IMG/VR virus record: IMGVR_UViG_3300028048_000038
Location: 128,001-192,000 of that record
Length of the DNA: 64,000 bases
From: a virus
Taxonomy: Duplodnaviria > Caudoviricetes
Reading direction: 5' to 3' (one strand)
Part shown: in pieces, positions 2,675 to 50,316 of the stretch
Layout: every line of letters starts with the position of its first letter
How positions within the stretch are numbered: the stretch's first letter is position 1
Notes under the pieces: model-generated
Database searches by the model: none
Seen by the model: the letters and a program-made list of their open reading frames with translations, nothing else
What the model was told of the DNA's origin: nothing
Program-made: the position numbers and the translations under genes

Positions 2675-2690
2675 AACGTTTTCTTTTAGA

Positions 2691-2826
2691 GTGCGGTAGA
2701 GGAGTCGAACCTCTGTTTACGGCTTGGAATGCATAATTTTTTCAATAATACATCTGCTGTCTATTTCCTAACGGAAACGTTAAAAAACTTTTAAAGCGTT
2801 GTCCTAGACCACTAGACGAACCGCAC
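2691..2826 (-). tRNA. tRNA (UCC, Gly anticodon) interrupted at position 29/30 by a 64-nt ACAGCA-stem insertion (2733-2796)
   Basis: Acceptor GTGCGGT/ACCGCAC, D arm, T arm AGAGG TTCGACT CCTCT; removing the insert gives a perfect anticodon arm ACGGC ATTCCAA GCCGT. Confidence 0.75.
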
Positions 2827-2924
2827 AGTTGTCTGCTACAAACGATGAACGTAGGTCTCACAGACTATGATGGTCAACCGAAGTCTTATTAAGTATTGCG
2901 CACTACACCATCATGACTTTTTGA

Positions 2925-2995
2925 ATCTCCTAGAGGAATCGAACCTCTCTTCCGACTTGCGATGCCACGTGTCCTAACCGATAGACGAAGGAGAT
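2925..2995 (-). tRNA. tRNA-like gene, irregular anticodon arm (loop ATCGCAA)
   Basis: Acceptor ATCTCCT/AGGAGAT, canonical T arm, Glu/Asp-type D arm. Confidence 0.55.
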
Positions 2996-3205
2996 ATAAA
3001 ATGGGGAAATGATTTTAACTAGTATGTTGCTCACTTCCCCAAAGGCAACGGCTGTACTCAGCCAACGAGACGGTTTATTTTCACCCACAGAGCCGAAATC
3101 CGACAACCCACTCAGCCCCTTAAGACAAGCCAATCTTACGAGTTTTTGAAGACACTTCACCCTAATGTCTTGCTAAAAAAGGAAAACTCGCCCATCCTTG
3201 TATTA

Positions 3206-4033
3206 TTAATGTTTGATGTTCCACATTGGGGTAGAACCACCACCAACCATCACATCAATATTTGCGCCATTCTTAGCTGCAATAGTCTCAATCCACTTCA
3301 GACTAATGAAGTCTTGCGTACTAAGACCAAGCTCCTCTCGATAAGCCTTATCAGCCTTTGCCCTCTGACGTTCAGCTTTCTCACGAGCTAACTCAACCTC
3401 AACTTGTCGCTCTTGAGTCTGCTTTGCTTGCACTGCCTTCGCTGTCTTATTCATTTCCGCAAGCTGCTCCTTATTAGGAATTGCCTTACCAATCGTTACC
3501 TGACGAATTGTTACTGGGAACTCCTTCTCCTTGGACAACTCTGCAACATAATTCTGCATCTGCTTGAGTACCTTTGTATCAATCTCATTCAGAATCGCTC
3601 GATTGGACATGAGGTCAAAGGGACTGTGCTGTGAGATATGGTCTCGCACAAGATTACAGTAGTAGTTGTAAAGGTTTGTGTTGAACCAATCAGTACCGTA
3701 GTTCTGCAAGAGAATTGGTGACTTACCCTTCTGAATCTGTGTGATGATAATGGTGTGGAAGTCCAACGGAGTATTGTCATCACTGAACAAGTCATCCATG
3801 TCTACTTGATGCTTGAAAGGTACAATCTTGAAAGTCTCTGTGTCAGTAGACCACCAAATCCACTCAAGACCAGTCTCAACTGGCTCATTCTGTACACCAC
3901 CATGACCCAAGAACCAAGGCTTGTCAATTAGAACTGTCTCCTCGTCAGCATTAACTGTGGTACAGCCGATGCAAGAGGTTAAACTTGTTGTTGCAAGGAA
4001 TGCAAACAATAACATTGTTAAAAATTTCTTCAT
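3206..4033 (-). CDS. SPFH/band-7 (prohibitin-like) lipoprotein
   Basis: Lipoprotein signal (LTSC), SPFH-like core, C-terminal coiled coil. Confidence 0.75.
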   Translation of the reverse strand: MKKFLTMLLFAFLATTSLTSCIGCTTVNADEETVLIDKPWFLGHGGVQNEPVETGLEWIWWSTDTETFKIVPFKHQVDMDDLFSDDNTPLDFHTIIITQIQKGKSPILLQNYGTDWFNTNLYNYYCNLVRDHISQHSPFDLMSNRAILNEIDTKVLKQMQNYVAELSKEKEFPVTIRQVTIGKAIPNKEQLAEMNKTAKAVQAKQTQERQVEVELAREKAERQRAKADKAYREELGLSTQDFISLKWIETIAAKNGANIDVMVGGGSTPMWNIKH

Positions 4034-8262: not shown

Positions 8263-8577
8263 ATTTCCTTGTTTTTAAATTTCTGATGTAAAGATACGAA
8301 AAAAAGTTGAACCAACCAAATGATTAATTCAACTTTAACACTCATTAACCTTACACTTGTTCTCGGCTCTATTCACCTTGTTGTAAAAGTTAATCCTTTT
8401 CAACTTAATAGTAAATTAGATTTACCTGTATCAACCATGAAGGTATCCTCTTAACCATCAAGGAACTAGGGCAAGGGACTAATCCTTGCACCGCATTACT
8501 GCTTCATCTGCCATTTCTTACATGGCTTGCGCTTGTCTAACCTATTTCAGTATTTCAATGAATACACCAAGCCGTAG

Positions 8578-8653
8578 TGAGCATAGTAGGATTCGAACCC
8601 ACGCCTTTTACGGTCCTAGAAGCCGTTGCAATCGACCACTCTGCCATATGCCC
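8578..8653 (-). tRNA. tRNA with CUA anticodon (candidate amber suppressor)
   Basis: GGGCATA/TATGCTC acceptor, ACGGC TTCTAGG ACCGT anticodon arm, canonical T arm. Confidence 0.65.
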
Positions 8654-11195: not shown

Positions 11196-11250
11196 CGGAA
11201 GCTAGTTAAACCTAGAGTTGCAATCTATGTAATATTGCTGTGAGCTTCCT
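11196..11250 (-). ncRNA. ACAGCA-stem RNA carrying a bare Cys(GCA) anticodon-like hairpin
   Basis: GGAAGCT-C-ACAGCAA...TAGA TTGCAAC TCTA...AGCTTCC. Confidence 0.65.
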
Positions 11251-11423: not shown

Positions 11424-11672
11424 AAAACCTACGGATATGATTTATCAGGAATCTAGCTTAACCTCTGCTGAAGACTTATTTTTACCTATCCACTCATAGG
11501 AACTTCACAGAGTGCTTCTCACACCATTAGGCAGCATCGAAAGAAATAGTATTCTATACGCTAGTGGTACTGCATAGACATTGTTACATATCTCTCCCTA
11601 CATTCTTCTTAGTGTGAACCCTTGCGACAAATGTGCCCACGCTTTCATATCTACGCCTACATCGTAGGTTTT
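11424..11672 (-). ncRNA. unassigned structured RNA (~250 nt)
   Basis: Terminal inverted repeat AAAACCTACG/CGTAGGTTTT plus inner GATATGA/TCATATC; no ORF; between tRNAs. Confidence 0.5.
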
Positions 11673-11675
11673 ATG

Positions 11676-11750
11676 TGGACCCAGACGGCTCTGCCCCGTC
11701 AACCTACTGCTTGCAAAACAGTCGCTCTAGCTAATTGGAGCTATAGGCCC
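11676..11750 (-). tRNA. tRNA-Ala (UGC)
   Basis: G3:U70 pair, loop TTTGCAA, non-canonical T loop GGCAGAG. Confidence 0.8.
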
Positions 11751-12255: not shown

Positions 12256-12418
12256 ATATAATATAAATATTAAGCCGTATAAAAAACGATTGGATGAAAA
12301 CTTTCATTTTACTAGCCACAATTAGTAGCCAAAACTTCTCCAATCTACTATAGCATGTTAACCTACTATAATAAGTAAGATGCTTATCATACGTGGAAGC
12401 ATCATAATCACGGTACGC

Positions 12419-12543
12419 ATGGGCAAAGGGATTCGAACCACTTGACCGTTTCATTATCACTTAAAGCATCAATGCGTTCCGAAGTCGGCATTGTGTATAG
12501 CTTAAATCGCAACAAAATTACTCTACCGCTGAGTTATGCCCAT
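12419..12543 (-). tRNA. tRNA-like gene with ~50-nt hairpin insertion in the anticodon arm
   Basis: ATGGGCA/TGCCCAT acceptor, D and T arms; insert contains CAATGC..TTCG..GCATTG hairpin. Confidence 0.55.
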
Positions 12544-12554
12544 AAATAAAAAAC

Positions 12555-13350
12555 ACAAAAGACTGAGAACATTGTCTTATTGTTGATGCCATTTCACAAC
12601 GGTTGGACGTTGCTGTTCACACGCTACCTTACGATAAGCCGTAGACACCATGCACGGACGGTTTTGAGAAAACCACCAAACACTTACTAGTTTATAACCT
12701 TTCGGTGCAGCATCATAGGTTTCAGTTCTTCGCCAAGCTCTTGCGGATTCATAGGATGCCTCCTATTAACTCAGACGAGTACTTTTAGTCCCTTGTTGGA
12801 TTCCTTGCGAGTCCCCAACCCCTTCATATTGCAGAAGGATAAGTGCATTTTAGCTGCCTAGTGCTCCACACTTTTGCTAATCAATACTATTCGAAGCTAT
12901 TATTCGACTTTTTAATCTGAGCGATATAGAGGATGAGGTGGAGCTAACACCATCCGTACCTTTTGAGTACAGCCCAATGAATCACCCCCTTACAAAGACT
13001 CACCACAAGTCTATTGCTGTTACATACTATTAGCCTTACGGTTCTCGCACCTTTCAATACGAGCCTAGTATATAACTGAACCCAACACGCCAACTGGTGA
13101 CTATTGCATCGAGTTCCATACGGTAATCTATTGTGTCACCACTCACCCAAAGATTCTCCACCCTTGAGAGCTTACACCTATGGTGTTACCCACGATGTAA
13201 ACCGTACCATATGCTTTTCAGTGAAATACCTAGAGTCACCCCTAAATATCTGCAACGCATTATCGCAAACAGCGTCACATTTATCCCATCACTGGATTAT
13301 CCTTCCTTTTGGCTACGAAAGCTAGCCAAACTCCTCATTTTCAGCCGAAA
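12555..13350 (-). ncRNA. large structured noncoding RNA candidate (~800 nt)
   Basis: No credible minus-strand ORF, raised GC, many short hairpins, embedded in tRNA cluster; boundaries approximate. Confidence 0.5.
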
Positions 13351-13699: not shown

Positions 13700-13763
13700 C
13701 GGAAACTCTTGTTTACCCCTAAATTCACAGTTTAGTATAAAATTCACTTGCTGTTAGTTTCCT
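13700..13763 (-). ncRNA. ACAGCA-stem RNA carrying a bare His(GUG) anticodon arm
   Basis: GGAAAC-TA-ACAGCAA...CTAAA CTGTGAA TTTAG...GTTTCC; own promoter near 13785. Confidence 0.7.
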
Positions 13764-14147: not shown

Positions 14148-14324
14148 TTTTCAAAGAACTTTTTTTCTTTTATAAAATAATCAGCTACACGAACCTCTTC
14201 AATGTACTTATGAAAGATTCCCTTCCACGTATGTTATACAGATTAATACATGACTTTTATCCTAATATAGCATAACTTTACTGTAAAAGTTTACTTCATC
14301 ATCCAACCCTGACTGATTATTAAG

Positions 14325-14780
14325 TGGACTTGCGCAGAGTCGAACTGCGGTCACAATTACCGACCCATAAAGGATTATACAAGCTTAAGAAAATTGGTGA
14401 GTGGCTTGCGCCACCCTTCCTCTCTGCCACCTCATTTTGAGAAAACGAGGAAAACTTGGGGAATGACTAGAGTCACCGATTCCACCATTTGATTATCAGA
14501 ATGTTCTACCAAGCTGTCAACAGCTACAACACACCTAAGTGTTTTGAACTAAAGCATTGCTCCCAAGGTCTCGAACCAGGAACCTTTCTTCTAATCAAAA
14601 AAAATTTGCTAGGATGTTCTGTTCCTAAGAGCCTAGCCTCTCGGCTCACGCTTACGCAGCTATAGCGTACTCGTAAACAGGAGAATCTACGTTCTCTGCG
14701 TTTATTTTTTTTGCTATTTGAAGTGTATGCCCACTGCTTGTCCTTTACCAGACGCATAACGTTCTATACCATTCAAGCCC
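14325..14780 (-). ncRNA. ssrA: tmRNA; tag peptide AENVDSPVYEYAIAA* (14652-14699)
   Basis: 5' GGGCTTG pairs with 3' CAAGTCC-A including G3:U70; terminal T arm CGCAG TTCGACT CTGCG; internal tag ORF ending YAIAA-stop. Confidence 0.88.
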
Positions 14781-15669: not shown

Positions 15670-15803
15670 CGGAAACGTTTTTAACATTTTAAGTTGCTCT
15701 ACCGGACTGAGCTACAAGGAGCTTACACCCCTCGATGGGATTTGAACCCATGACCTACTGCTTACAAGGCTTATTAAAAAATAACCATTGCTGTCTGTTT
15801 CCT
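15670..15803 (-). ncRNA. circularly permuted tRNA-Thr(UGU)-like RNA clamped by ACAGCA stem
   Basis: Order: GGAAAC-AG-ACAGCAA, GC CTTGTAA GCAGT, V, T arm, 3' acceptor CGAGGGG, loop, 5' acceptor CTCCTTG, D arm, ACT, GTTTCC. Confidence 0.8.
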
Positions 15804-20462: not shown

Positions 20463-20586
20463 CGGTGACGTGTGGACTCGAACCACAGACCAACGGATTA
20501 ACAATCGACATTCATAATCTGCTGTGGGTTACGCACACGAGGTAACACGTGAATTTACGCTGCTCTACCAACTGAGCTACGTCACC
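20463..20586 (-). tRNA. tRNA-Asn (GUU) interrupted at 29/30 by a 51-nt ACAGCA-stem insertion (20507-20557)
   Basis: Canonical acceptor, D and T arms; removal gives GCGGA TTGTTAA TCCGT; insert has GTTAC/GTAAC-CC-ACAGCAG. Confidence 0.8.
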
Positions 20587-20595
20587 ATGTAAAAA

Positions 20596-20727
20596 GGGTA
20601 CATAAAACCAACATTTCAACCCCTCCAGTTTATTTAATTCTCTTTGCGGAGGGGGTGGGAATCGAACCCACGTTACACAAATTGACAGTCTGTTTGAAGT
20701 GTAAATTTATACTTGCTGTGTGTACCC
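20596..20727 (-). ncRNA. circularly permuted tRNA-Asp(GUC)-like RNA clamped by ACAGCA stem (D arm lost)
   Basis: GGGTAC-AC-ACAGCAA, ACAGA CTGTCAA TTTGT, T arm, CCCCTCC-G, linker, GGAGGGG, GTACCC. Confidence 0.75.
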
Positions 20728-30815: not shown

Positions 30816-30895
30816 AATTTATATACATTACCTATATATAAATATAATGAAATGTGCGAAAATATCAAGTCGAACTAACATTTTTTTTTATTTTG

Positions 30896-41409: not shown

Positions 41410-42768
41410 TCATCTTCTCTTGTCCTCTGCTGCCTTGATGTTCATCTTTGGCTTCATGAAGAACTTGATGTCAACTGTTGGCTCAATGAGTTTCACAATC
41501 TCATCCATTGGCTTGTATGCAGCTGGAGCCTCATCCAATGTTTTCTCGTCAGCAGTGGTGGTATAGATACCAGCATCTGCCATCTGCTTCTTGAACTCCT
41601 CAACATCCAAGGTCTTGTTAGCCTTATCACGAGACATAGAACGTCCACAGCCATGCGGGGCTGTCCAGTTCCAATCCTCGTTTGACTTACCTTCACAGAT
41701 TGAGATACCATCCCTCATATTGAATGGGATAATTAACTTCTCTCCCTCATAGGCACGAATAGCACCCTTACGAATCATCATATTTGGCTTTCCACTCAAC
41801 GCCTTAAAGTCATAATCGATGTAATTATGAGTAGTGGCAATAAAGTCAATTGGCTTGCCACCATCTGACATCTTACGATAAATTTCAACCAACTGCTCGT
41901 GGATAACCTCGTGGTTCAACTTGGCATATACTTGAGCAATCAAGACATCGACAAGATAACCCATAAGTTTGTCACCGTTCAAGTATCCTGGAATCTTACG
42001 TGATAAGTACTCCTCTCTTGCTGCATCAATCTCTGCCTTAATCTTCTTTCTATCAGTATTCTTCTCCTTGACCTTATCCTCAAGCATCTTCATTTCCTCT
42101 CTAGAAACTACCATGCTTCTTGCTATCTTATCCCAATAGTTGAATACAGCCAAGCCCAACTTACGTGAGCCACAGTGTACGCACATGCAGTACTTACCAA
42201 GGTCATCATTAACATCGTACTCCACAAAATGATTACCACCACCCACAGAGCCAATAGACTTCATGAAATCACCATAAGGAATGTGTACATGTTTACACCA
42301 ATTCTCTAAATCCATTTCTGAGTTGAAATAGATTGCATAGTCCACAAACTTAGGATAAAGTGAAACCAATCTATCCATAGCTGAATTAATAGCCTTTGCA
42401 ATTCGCTTCCAATCAATCTTGGACTTGTCATTGATGGTGAATCCAAACGGAATATCCTTGCGAATCTTGTGCTCAAACTCCTTCATCTTATCCTCGACAA
42501 TAGGCTTGTCGAAGAAAGTGGCAGAGATTGTACAACCAATGTCACAACCTACATGCTCAGGATTAACGTGGTCTGTTTCAATGTTAACTGGGCATGAGAA
42601 TCCAATCACAATGCCCTTACCATCGTGACAATCAGGCATGATACGAATCTTTCTATCCTTAAATGCCCTACAATCAGCAATCCTATATATCGTTGACAAT
42701 GCGGTCTCCTCCACATTGTCGGTAAAGACCTTTATGTACTTACAATACTGTCCTTTAATTTCTAACAT
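41410..42768 (-). CDS. rtcB: RtcB-family RNA 2',3'-cyclic phosphate/5'-OH ligase
   Basis: MPDCH, VGCDIGC, GGGNHFVE, HCGSR, HNY, RKGA, PHGCGR, DEAP.AYK. Confidence 0.95.
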   Translation of the reverse strand: MLEIKGQYCKYIKVFTDNVEETALSTIYRIADCRAFKDRKIRIMPDCHDGKGIVIGFSCPVNIETDHVNPEHVGCDIGCTISATFFDKPIVEDKMKEFEHKIRKDIPFGFTINDKSKIDWKRIAKAINSAMDRLVSLYPKFVDYAIYFNSEMDLENWCKHVHIPYGDFMKSIGSVGGGNHFVEYDVNDDLGKYCMCVHCGSRKLGLAVFNYWDKIARSMVVSREEMKMLEDKVKEKNTDRKKIKAEIDAAREEYLSRKIPGYLNGDKLMGYLVDVLIAQVYAKLNHEVIHEQLVEIYRKMSDGGKPIDFIATTHNYIDYDFKALSGKPNMMIRKGAIRAYEGEKLIIPFNMRDGISICEGKSNEDWNWTAPHGCGRSMSRDKANKTLDVEEFKKQMADAGIYTTTADEKTLDEAPAAYKPMDEIVKLIEPTVDIKFFMKPKMNIKAAEDKRR

Positions 42769-48642: not shown

Positions 48643-50316
48643 TTAAATATTAATGTAGTTCAAAATCTCTTGGCTAAGAGCCTTTTCAACTAGCTCTTCG
48701 GCAGTCATCTGACGCACCTCACCTGTTTTCTCGTCAATCACTTTAGTATCTCCCATCAGCATTGTGATGATTGAAGGGTCAAAGCCAGAAAGGAATGTAC
48801 ATCCTGGTTCTATCGACTTACCCTCAAAGTGAGTAACACCATGCCTTGAAGCTACATCCCACCAAATGAATTTCATGTTATTCACGAACTCCTCTGGGAA
48901 CACTGTCTTCAATGACCTTACTGAGTACTCATAGTTGGTTGGCTCAGTACGTCTTGAGTACCATCCTCCAGTTGGGTTAAACTCCATATCACTTACAACC
49001 AATATACTTGTACAATACTGCTCAAGTGGAATCTCAGGGTGTTCCTTTCTAATCTTAATAATCTCGTCAACCGCAGATTGGAAGTTAGTACCACCGCAAC
49101 CCACGCTTGGAAGATTCATTATTCTATCGCAGAATGAATCACCCTTCATGTCATAAGGTGTTGACACATTATCGAACATGATGACCTTGTTATGGAATGG
49201 ACCAGTGTTAAGGTCAGCAAAGAACAGTGCAAGAGAACTTGCAACATCTGAACAGTAAATATCCTTTAAGCCAGTAACTGGCTGGTTCATACTTCCACTA
49301 GTATCAAGGCAACACCATACATTCTCAGTAATTCTACCGCCATCACGTGCCTTGTCTACAAGACCCTTAAACTGTGCATCAAGGGTGTGCTTAACCTCTA
49401 GAGGAATTGTCATAGAACCTCTACGATATCCACGTGAACCACGTGCCTCACGAAGACGTTTTGCAAGCTCGAAGACATAACCAGTGAATTTTGCTACTGG
49501 CTGCTGCATAATCCACTCTGTGTAGTTATCCTTCAAACCGTGATTTGAAAGGAACTTACTTGTTACAAGGAGGTTAAGAGCACGACCTGGAATGTGATTC
49601 CAATTCAAATCCTTATAGTTACGAGAACAAATCAACTTTTGGAAGTCGTGTGCTCTACCGCTTGACTTCATCTTATTGTACTCCTTATAGGTAATACCCA
49701 TCTGATTAGCAAATGCCTTTGCCAAATCATTAGTGATGGTAGTCCACTCAGTTTTGCACTTGCTCTGTGACTTGATACGAGGCATATACTTCTTAATCAA
49801 GTCAACATGTGTGTCACAAAGCAAACCTTGTGCAATAACCTCAAAGAGTGCCTTTTGATTTAAGCACTTGATGTTATCCTTGATGTCGTAGTACATGAGT
49901 GTCCACAAGTCCTTCCAAGAACCAACAAGAGGCAATGCCCAAATGTTCTTGTAGAATGCGTCCTTTTGCTCTTGAGCAATCCAAAGCAAACGCTTGAATG
50001 ACTCGTCACGAGCACCTTGACCATTCTGAACCTTATCAGTCTCATTATCGGCATTCACCTTAACCTTGCGTGTAACCATACGAAGGTAGAATGGGAAACG
50101 AAGAGCTGCACTTGGATTCTCAGCCCAAATTGTAGCTTGGTCAGCAAATACTTCTGCTAGTGTACGTCCTCTGAAGTTACCAGCCTTACCGAATTGGTCA
50201 ACAATGGCACTACCGCTAGAAATAAGAGTTTTTGCCCCGTTTTCGGTAGTTGTAAAACTCTCGAATCCCACTGCATCAATAAATGCGTTTGTCTTTGTTG
50301 CTGTTTTTGTATTCAT
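48643..50316 (-). CDS. TROVE-like/vWA protein (DUF2828-like, Ro60-related architecture)
   Basis: TENGA N-terminus, G.G.R, GSWKDL, helical region, then MIDAS CLDTSGSM, GTNF, VSDMEF. Confidence 0.75.
   Translation of the reverse strand: MNTKTATKTNAFIDAVGFESFTTTENGAKTLISSGSAIVDQFGKAGNFRGRTLAEVFADQATIWAENPSAALRFPFYLRMVTRKVKVNADNETDKVQNGQGARDESFKRLLWIAQEQKDAFYKNIWALPLVGSWKDLWTLMYYDIKDNIKCLNQKALFEVIAQGLLCDTHVDLIKKYMPRIKSQSKCKTEWTTITNDLAKAFANQMGITYKEYNKMKSSGRAHDFQKLICSRNYKDLNWNHIPGRALNLLVTSKFLSNHGLKDNYTEWIMQQPVAKFTGYVFELAKRLREARGSRGYRRGSMTIPLEVKHTLDAQFKGLVDKARDGGRITENVWCCLDTSGSMNQPVTGLKDIYCSDVASSLALFFADLNTGPFHNKVIMFDNVSTPYDMKGDSFCDRIMNLPSVGCGGTNFQSAVDEIIKIRKEHPEIPLEQYCTSILVVSDMEFNPTGGWYSRRTEPTNYEYSVRSLKTVFPEEFVNNMKFIWWDVASRHGVTHFEGKSIEPGCTFLSGFDPSIITMLMGDTKVIDEKTGEVRQMTAEELVEKALSQEILNYINI

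What the first reader, a model, noticed from the sequence alone, without database searches (positions are those of the whole stretch)
2691..2826. tRNA(UCC) with an intron-like insert at non-canonical position 29/30
Seen: deleting 2733-2796 joins ACG to GC and gives a perfect 5-bp anticodon stem ACGGC/GCCGT with a 7-nt loop. The 64-nt insert carries GTTTCC-GTTA-GGAAAT-AG-ACAGCAG. Known: bacterial and phage tRNA introns are typically self-splicing group I introns of 200 nt or more in the anticodon loop, which this is too short to be. Inference: a protein-spliced intron type (RtcB-ligated) or a permanent protein handle.
Basis: partly seen in the sequence, partly recalled or inferred. Interest (0 to 1): 0.85.

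Follow-up and report, generated by a model that had tools for sequence, protein, structure and literature searches.

The report
Phage tRNA mimic with Ro60-type handle
This phage gene is a tRNA look-alike with a 64-base side arm in its anticodon stem; the arm is more likely a permanent docking site for the phage's own ring-shaped Ro60-like protein than an intron, and it belongs to a widespread phage RNA family I could not find described.

Summary
In detail: deleting 2733-2796 gives a valid tRNA(UCC) cloverleaf. The break is not chance. Two more genes in this 410-kb phage, and 25 of 37 such genes overall, restore a full anticodon arm at 28/29 or 29/30 (shuffles: 0.8). The insert is a hairpin-NN-ACAGCA(A/G) module. 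In this phage it also clamps permuted tRNAs; in relatives it clamps bare anticodon hairpins that no splicing could turn into tRNA. It travels with a DUF2828/DUF7788 protein (window 48643-50316) that folds like Ro60 (Z 18.7): 20/22 phage records versus 5/38 controls. RtcB occurs in only 3/22. I found no splicing endonuclease, bulge-helix-bulge motif or intron-less allele. A rumen RNA contig holds the unspliced form (weak evidence). The body is tRNA-Glu-type with a Gly anticodon and A32, and anticodons vary among orthologous sibling RNAs. Phage Phosso has nearly the same tRNA module and break, but a classical Y-RNA handle and classical Ro60. Best reading (0.65): an unspliced, circularly permuted Y-RNA-like tRNA mimic bound by the Ro60-like protein, probably an anticodon decoy. 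Spliced intron: about 0.17. Binding and function are untested. The scan noted this family before on other genomes.

The parts
2797..2826 (-). tRNA positions 1-29: acceptor 5' strand, D arm, first three bases of anticodon stem; tRNA-Glu-type body
   Evidence: 57 of 64 tRNAs with this D arm have Glu anticodons
2779..2796 (-). Left linker of the insert; its U6 tract can pair with the A tract of the right linker (possible second helix, not significant family-wide)
   Evidence: sequence
2763..2778 (-). Handle hairpin (6 bp, GUUA loop): the loop-closed form of the GGAAAC/GUUUCC clamp helix of the free RNAs
2754..2760 (-). ACAGCAG motif, 2 nt after the helix; inferred protein-binding strand
   Evidence: 2-nt spacing in 20/37; A or G at the 7th position in 35/37
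2733..2753 (-). Right linker of the insert
   Evidence: sequence
2722..2732 (-). Anticodon mini-hairpin, positions 30-40 (2 bp plus loop with A32, U33, UCC at 2728-2726); the same hairpin recurs in permuted RNAs of other phages
2690..2721 (-). Positions 41-73: stem strand, 4-nt variable region, T arm, acceptor 3' strand, U73; no encoded CCA
20463..20586 (-). Sibling: tRNA-Asn(GUU)-like gene with a 51-nt module at 29/30 (20507-20557). A third sibling (His GUG) lies at genome 124727-124847, just outside the window
15670..15802 (-). Permuted sibling in YrlA wiring: clamp, ACAGCAA, Thr(UGU) 3' half, closed acceptor stem, 5' half, clamp; break at 29/30; weak Rfam YrlA hit (36 bits, cut-off 69)
11196..11249 (-). 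Minimal clamp RNA without tRNA body (similar ones start at 13762, 32332, 35231; larger ones at 20727, 26692, 29035, 32912, 33454)
48643..50316 (-). 557-aa DUF2828/DUF7788 protein with Ro60 fold; inferred partner
41410..42768 (-). RtcB RNA ligase; present here but not linked to the insert family
2923..2995 (-). Upstream paralogous tRNA-like gene, same D/T arms and A32-type loop, no insert; anticodon region highly variable in relatives
3206..4033 (-). Band-7/SPFH gene upstream of the two tRNA-like genes

Best explanation
The gene makes an unspliced RNA of about 137 nt: a tRNA-shaped body whose anticodon stem is a three-way junction (27-29:41-43 helix, the handle arm, and the 30-40 anticodon hairpin). 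The helix-NN-ACAGCAG arm docks the phage's Ro60-fold DUF2828/DUF7788 protein, as a Y-RNA stem docks Ro60. It is a circular permutation of YrlA-type Y RNA in which the free ends sit at the acceptor stem. Shown: anatomy, family, permutation series, predicted fold of the protein, co-occurrence. Inferred: binding, lack of splicing, and 5'/3' trimming with CCA addition (the phage has a CCA/poly(A)-polymerase-family gene). Most likely job (about half of this confidence): a protein-stabilised decoy that shows a Gly(UCC)-like loop and a tRNA elbow to host tRNA-attacking defence enzymes. The alternative job is a tether that brings RNA repair or decay enzymes to the ring.
For: Same module in three wirings in one genome and its relatives. 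DUF7788 in 20/22 insert-bearing phage records (7/7 near-complete) vs 5/38 controls, Fisher p 2e-9, not corrected for kinship. Reverse test: motif plus T arm in 3/4 control records with the protein vs 1/12 without. Three clamp RNAs within 400 nt behind the homologous gene in LeBron; others behind it in SUSP1 and Aeh1. Model's top 13 Foldseek hits are all Ro60/TROVE; VIA Z 18.7, rmsd 4.9, 420 aligned. Phosso: near-identical tRNA module and break, GCCGAUG-type Y handle, TROVE present, DUF7788 not detected. Glu body with Gly anticodon and A32 (identity rules from my own knowledge). Anticodons differ among orthologous sibling RNAs: His/Gln, and UCC/UAC/UUC/GCU. Intact Gly(UCC) gene at 30895. Unspliced RNA contig over 2693-2921.
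Against: No binding or function test exists. The classical Ro-binding motif is absent and the TROVE profile does not hit the protein. The restored arm is perfect in most members, and the Asn sibling has the matching discriminator G73, as a spliced tRNA would need. At this locus UCC is the same in the window and L122 (the six other copies were picked by a pattern holding it), so decoy-like variation is shown for sibling loci only. RNA contigs cannot show absence of a spliced form. The phage encodes RtcB and two more RNA ligases.
Confidence: 0.65

Rival explanations
1. Protein-spliced intron of a new type. The module is a recognition signal, perhaps read by the Ro60-like protein with a nuclease; it is cut out at 29/30 and the halves are joined by RtcB or another ligase. 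The permuted genes would mature through a circle, as algal and archaeal permuted tRNAs do.
For: Canonical arm restored in 29/37 genes vs 2.4 expected; same site in three genes here and in the permuted copy; RtcB, two RNA_ligase genes and a CCA-type gene in the genome.
Against: RtcB in only 3/22 records (hosts may supply it); no EndA, no BHB; site varies from 28/29 to 32/33 with no fixed junction letters; 8/37 cannot give an arm; bare clamp RNAs; Glu/Gly mismatch and A32 make a poor product; no intron-less allele.
Confidence: 0.17
2. The RNA keeps the arm but is charged and used in translation or sensing, a Ro-handled working tRNA.
For: Normal 7-bp acceptor stem, G1-C72, G3-C70, U73 and a GC-closed UCC loop; CCA-type enzyme in the phage.
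Against: A 64-nt branch at 29/30 should clash with the ribosomal decoding site (inference); Glu-type body with C35; only 5/37 members encode CCA.
Confidence: 0.08
3. Neutral recombination product: a tRNA pseudogene that picked up a Y-RNA handle and does little.
For: The same slot holds other cargo or nothing in related phages.
Against: Eight copies are 96% identical with changes mostly in linkers and loops; the wiring recurs in at least 22 phage records; RNA covers it.
Confidence: 0.07

Closest known systems
YrlA Y RNAs with Ro60/Rsr (Rfam RF02553; PMC4201824; bioRxiv 10.1101/312249; phiLo Ro60, PMC12135203)
   Same: tRNA elbow joined through the anticodon stem to a handle helix; Ro60-fold protein in the same genome; the permuted sibling at 15670-15802 has YrlA order and a weak YrlA hit.
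   Different: Handle motif ACAGCA(A/G), not GNCGAAN0-1G; partner is DUF2828/DUF7788, not TROVE-positive; free acceptor ends and loop-closed handle; an anticodon loop is kept; the protein gene is 46 kb away.
Lak megaphage tRNA introns (PMC6784885)
   Same: Short AT-rich inserts in tRNA genes of large gut phages, including a Gly(UCC); splicing never shown.
   Different: The Lak introns I read (79-114 nt) lie just after the anticodon, resemble nested tRNAs and had no ACAGCA match in the stored table.
Archaeal non-canonical tRNA introns and split or permuted tRNAs (BHB, EndA, RtcB; from my own knowledge)
   Same: Breaks inside the anticodon stem, including 29/30; permuted gene order.
   Different: No BHB at the junctions and no EndA in the phage.
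[quoted passage not shown]
   Same: tRNA-like genes directly behind a Band-7 gene in an RtcB-encoding genome.
   Different: RtcB is 38 kb away; the original paper was not available, so sequence features were not compared; fits 2923-2995 at least as well.

Membership tests
YrlA / Y RNA | Rfam RF02553 score at or above 69 bits | tested here: not met
   No hit on the element; sibling 36.2 bits
YrlA / Y RNA | GNCGAAN0-1G Ro-binding motif | tested here: not met
   Absent from the insert; motif
YrlA / Y RNA | tRNA-like D/T elbow joined to a handle helix through the anticodon stem | tested here: met
YrlA / Y RNA | Order T arm, closed acceptor stem, D arm | tested here: not met
   Element has normal tRNA order; met by sibling 15670-15802
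YrlA / Y RNA | Ro60-fold protein encoded | tested here: met
   By predicted fold; TROVE profile negative; not within 4 kb
YrlA / Y RNA | Binds Ro60 | not testable with these tools
   Needs EMSA or pull-down
Group I tRNA intron | About 200 nt or more with P3-P7 core; Rfam match | tested here: not met
   64 nt; no Rfam intron hit
BHB / EndA tRNA intron | Bulge-helix-bulge at the junctions | tested here: not met
   1 of 4 central pairs here; a 4-bp helix in 1/37
BHB / EndA tRNA intron | Splicing endonuclease available | tested here: not met
   PF01974 absent from the phage; host not examined
Any spliced tRNA intron | Ligated exon junction in RNA | tested here: inconclusive
   No 2732-2797 joint among those listed, 11 joints not shown; contigs of long-RNA libraries only
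Lak-type tRNA intron | Insert just 3' of the anticodon | tested here: not met
   Only 29/30 restores the arm
Skipping-rope RNA (RF02924) | Rfam match | tested here: not met
   No hit; paper read
b7a-tRNA | Sequence model of b7a-tRNA | not testable with these tools
   Source paper not held

The most novel reading that the evidence does not exclude
The ACAGCA module is a protein-read splice signal: phages carry a third tRNA-splicing route (neither group I nor BHB/EndA), in which the Ro60-like protein positions cuts at 29/30 and a ligase joins both interrupted and permuted tRNA genes.
Probability: 0.17. Interest if true: 0.9.

Novelty: new variant of a known kind. Interest (0 to 1): 0.62.

Why it matters
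It proposes an RNA partner and a Ro60-like role for DUF2828/DUF7788, which has matches in 574 deposited phage records. It explains odd, over-long 'tRNA' annotations such as the 122-nt Aeh1 tRNA-Val. It shows a Y-RNA architecture with an intact anticodon loop and, here, free acceptor ends, which bears on the open question of what YrlA's tRNA domain is for. Cultured phages (LeBron, SUSP1, Aeh1) carry both the protein and the RNAs, so it can be tested directly. If the arm is spliced instead, it would be a new tRNA-splicing route.

Tried and rejected
Skipping-rope RNA: recalled as a match, rejected (no Rfam hit). TROVE profile on the genome: negative; phmmer against PDB: nothing; only the fold search found Ro60. 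Second helix between the linkers: plausible here but significant in only 3/37, so not claimed for the family. T4 rnaD contains ACAGCAG after a hairpin, but no DUF7788 was detected in T4 (a search with no positive control): left as a weak lead. The single DNA hit for the spliced junction has no tRNA arms around it and looks like coding sequence. Promoter and terminator scan: no excess over shuffles. Parts without RNA cover were not interpreted. Not held: Sim and Wolin 2018 review, Burroughs and Aravind 2016, so a description of this motif there cannot be excluded. ACAGCA invariance in my 37-gene set, and 3'-half invariance in the six metagenome copies, come from the search patterns and were not counted as evidence. 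Host not determined.

Full report
Setting. The window is part of a 409,537-base phage record with a minus-strand tRNA cluster. Bovine gut RNA runs hold the region. The host was not determined.

Observation. The element runs from 2826 (G1) to 2690 (U73). Deleting 2733-2796 gives a cloverleaf that ARAGORN calls tRNA-Gly(UCC), with a perfect 5-bp anticodon stem. For this gene alone the chance of such a fit is about 1.6%. Two more genes in the genome are broken at the same place by the same kind of insert: Asn at 20463-20586 and His just outside the window. Pattern scans of viral and bacterial contigs gave 37 distinct tRNA bodies with an ACAGCA-type insert. A canonical arm can be restored in 29 of them (shuffle mean 2.4), and in 25 at 28/29 or 29/30 (0.8). 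The set includes close relatives, so these are not 37 independent events.

Anatomy of the insert. It reads linker, hairpin, 2 nt, ACAGCAG, linker. Across the family the hairpin averages 6.8 bp against 4.5 in shuffles, varies in sequence while staying paired, and ends 2 nt before the motif in 20 of 37. Seven near-identical copies from related phages differ mostly in linkers and loops; a loop change in two of them favours the 6-bp register over the 11-bp one RNAfold prefers. The same helix and motif form the two ends of about ten other small RNA genes in this genome. Their cargo is a permuted tRNA broken at 29/30 (15670-15802), a whole tRNA-like unit, or a short hairpin. In relatives the cargo is often a bare anticodon hairpin. 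This element is the circular permutation of the permuted type. An unrelated 224-kb phage has an identical anticodon arm in the permuted wiring on a different body.

Is the spliced product a working tRNA? Doubtful. The D arm is typical of tRNA-Glu: 57 of 64 tRNAs carrying it have Glu anticodons and none has A32. U2-A71, U11-A24, U13-G22 and the 4-nt variable loop are Glu identity features (own knowledge), but the anticodon is Gly. An intact Gly(UCC) gene exists at 30895. The His sibling has a Gln anticodon in the closest relative, and one permuted locus shows four different anticodons in four relatives. The same genomic slot carries non-anticodon hairpins or a second tRNA-like module in other relatives. 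Against this, the Asn sibling looks fully consistent, with G73.

Protein partner. The TROVE profile finds nothing in the genome. An earlier scan note pointed to ORF 48643-50316. It is DUF2828/DUF7788. Its AlphaFold model (pLDDT 73, pTM 0.60) has only Ro60/TROVE structures in the 13 hits below E 0.001; VIA-align gives Z 18.7, 15.7 and 14.4 for three Ro60s against 9.4 for the next fold. DUF7788 is in 20 of 22 insert-bearing phage records, including contigs of 8-20 kb, against 5 of 38 tRNA-bearing controls. RtcB is in 3 of 22 against 2 of 38, and TROVE in 0 of 22. In the reverse test the motif plus a T arm is in 3 of 4 controls with the protein and 1 of 12 without. In LeBron three clamp RNAs follow the homologous 'Ro-like RNA binding protein' gene within 400 nt; SUSP1 and Aeh1 carry them too. 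Phage Phosso is a natural swap: nearly the same tRNA module with the same break, a classical GCCGAUG-type bulged handle, a TROVE gene, and no DUF7788 detected. One example only, but it ties the 29/30 branch point to Y-RNA architecture.

Splicing tests. No EndA in the phage. No bulge-helix-bulge at the junctions. No fixed junction letters, and some members branch at 28/29 or 31/32. No intron-less DNA allele in viral contigs. In RNA contigs, one of 852 nt at depth 26 spans 2693-2921 with the insert in place and ends at the tRNA 3' end; no 2732-2797 joint is among those listed. That evidence is weak: contigs drop minor forms, long-RNA libraries miss tRNAs, and the contig could be a precursor or DNA. 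The phage does encode RtcB, two other RNA ligases and a CCA-type enzyme, so splicing stays possible.

Mechanism. Most likely (0.65) the arm stays in and docks the Ro60-like ring, while the tRNA part shows an elbow, free ends and an anticodon loop. Selection for a displayed anticodon hairpin explains the perfect 'spliced' arm without splicing, and also explains the bare clamp RNAs. A decoy against host tRNA-cutting defences fits the shifting anticodons; a tether for repair or decay enzymes fits what is known of Ro60 (PMC4201824, PMC12135203, 10.1101/312249). Binding, lack of splicing and function are all inferred.

Comparison and novelty. It works like YrlA but fails membership on motif, Rfam score and strand order. 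It is not a group I, BHB or Lak-type intron. I found no paper on the ACAGCA family or on DUF2828 as an RNA partner, but two relevant papers were not available. Earlier scan notes reached the same reading on other genomes; they are not independent support. Verdict: new variant of a known kind, interest 0.62.

Noticed in passing
window 11427-11674 (-): RNA contigs of one sample close on themselves over 248 nt (depth 92 and 62), starting just after the CCA of a tRNA-like gene at 11676-11750; the two ends pair. Possible circular RNA or tandem copy.
   Followed up: partly
window 2830-2921 (-): Structured mobile segment between the two tRNA-like genes, present or absent in relatives, and in an RNA contig at depth 708 with other flanks; no Rfam hit.
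   Followed up: partly
window 2996-3200 (-): Conserved structured non-coding stretch between the Band-7 gene and the tRNA-like gene, kept in all eight relatives; no Rfam hit.
   Followed up: partly
L129:9580-9690: The orthologous tRNA body holds a second, permuted tRNA-like module in its anticodon arm, giving a two-elbow RNA.
   Followed up: no
L122:9600-9750 (also L125, L127, L129): Another conserved insertion of about 140 nt with paired ends appears at this locus in relatives but not in the window.
   Followed up: no
window 12560-12990 (-): GOLLD-like RNA (62 bits, below cut-off 150), in the most deeply covered part of the RNA contigs.
   Followed up: no
window 12418-12543 (-): tRNA-like gene with a 52-nt insert that lacks the ACAGCA motif.
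   Followed up: no
window 14322-14780 (-): tmRNA above the Rfam cut-off.
   Followed up: no
window 8577-8653 (-): tRNA with CUA anticodon although genes read in code 11 and 34 long ORFs end in TAG.
   Followed up: no
L619:1554-1672 (phage T4 rnaD): T4 species 2 RNA has a hairpin followed by ACAGCAG near its CCA end; T4 showed no DUF7788 or TROVE hit.
   Followed up: partly
L622:24060-24305 (phage Aeh1): Two insert-type genes with variant motifs, one annotated as a 122-nt tRNA-Val, 2.7 kb from the Ro-like gene.
   Followed up: partly
L623:2985-3130 (phage Phosso): Unannotated YrlA-like RNA with an intact Glu(CUC) anticodon hairpin, missed by Rfam.
   Followed up: yes
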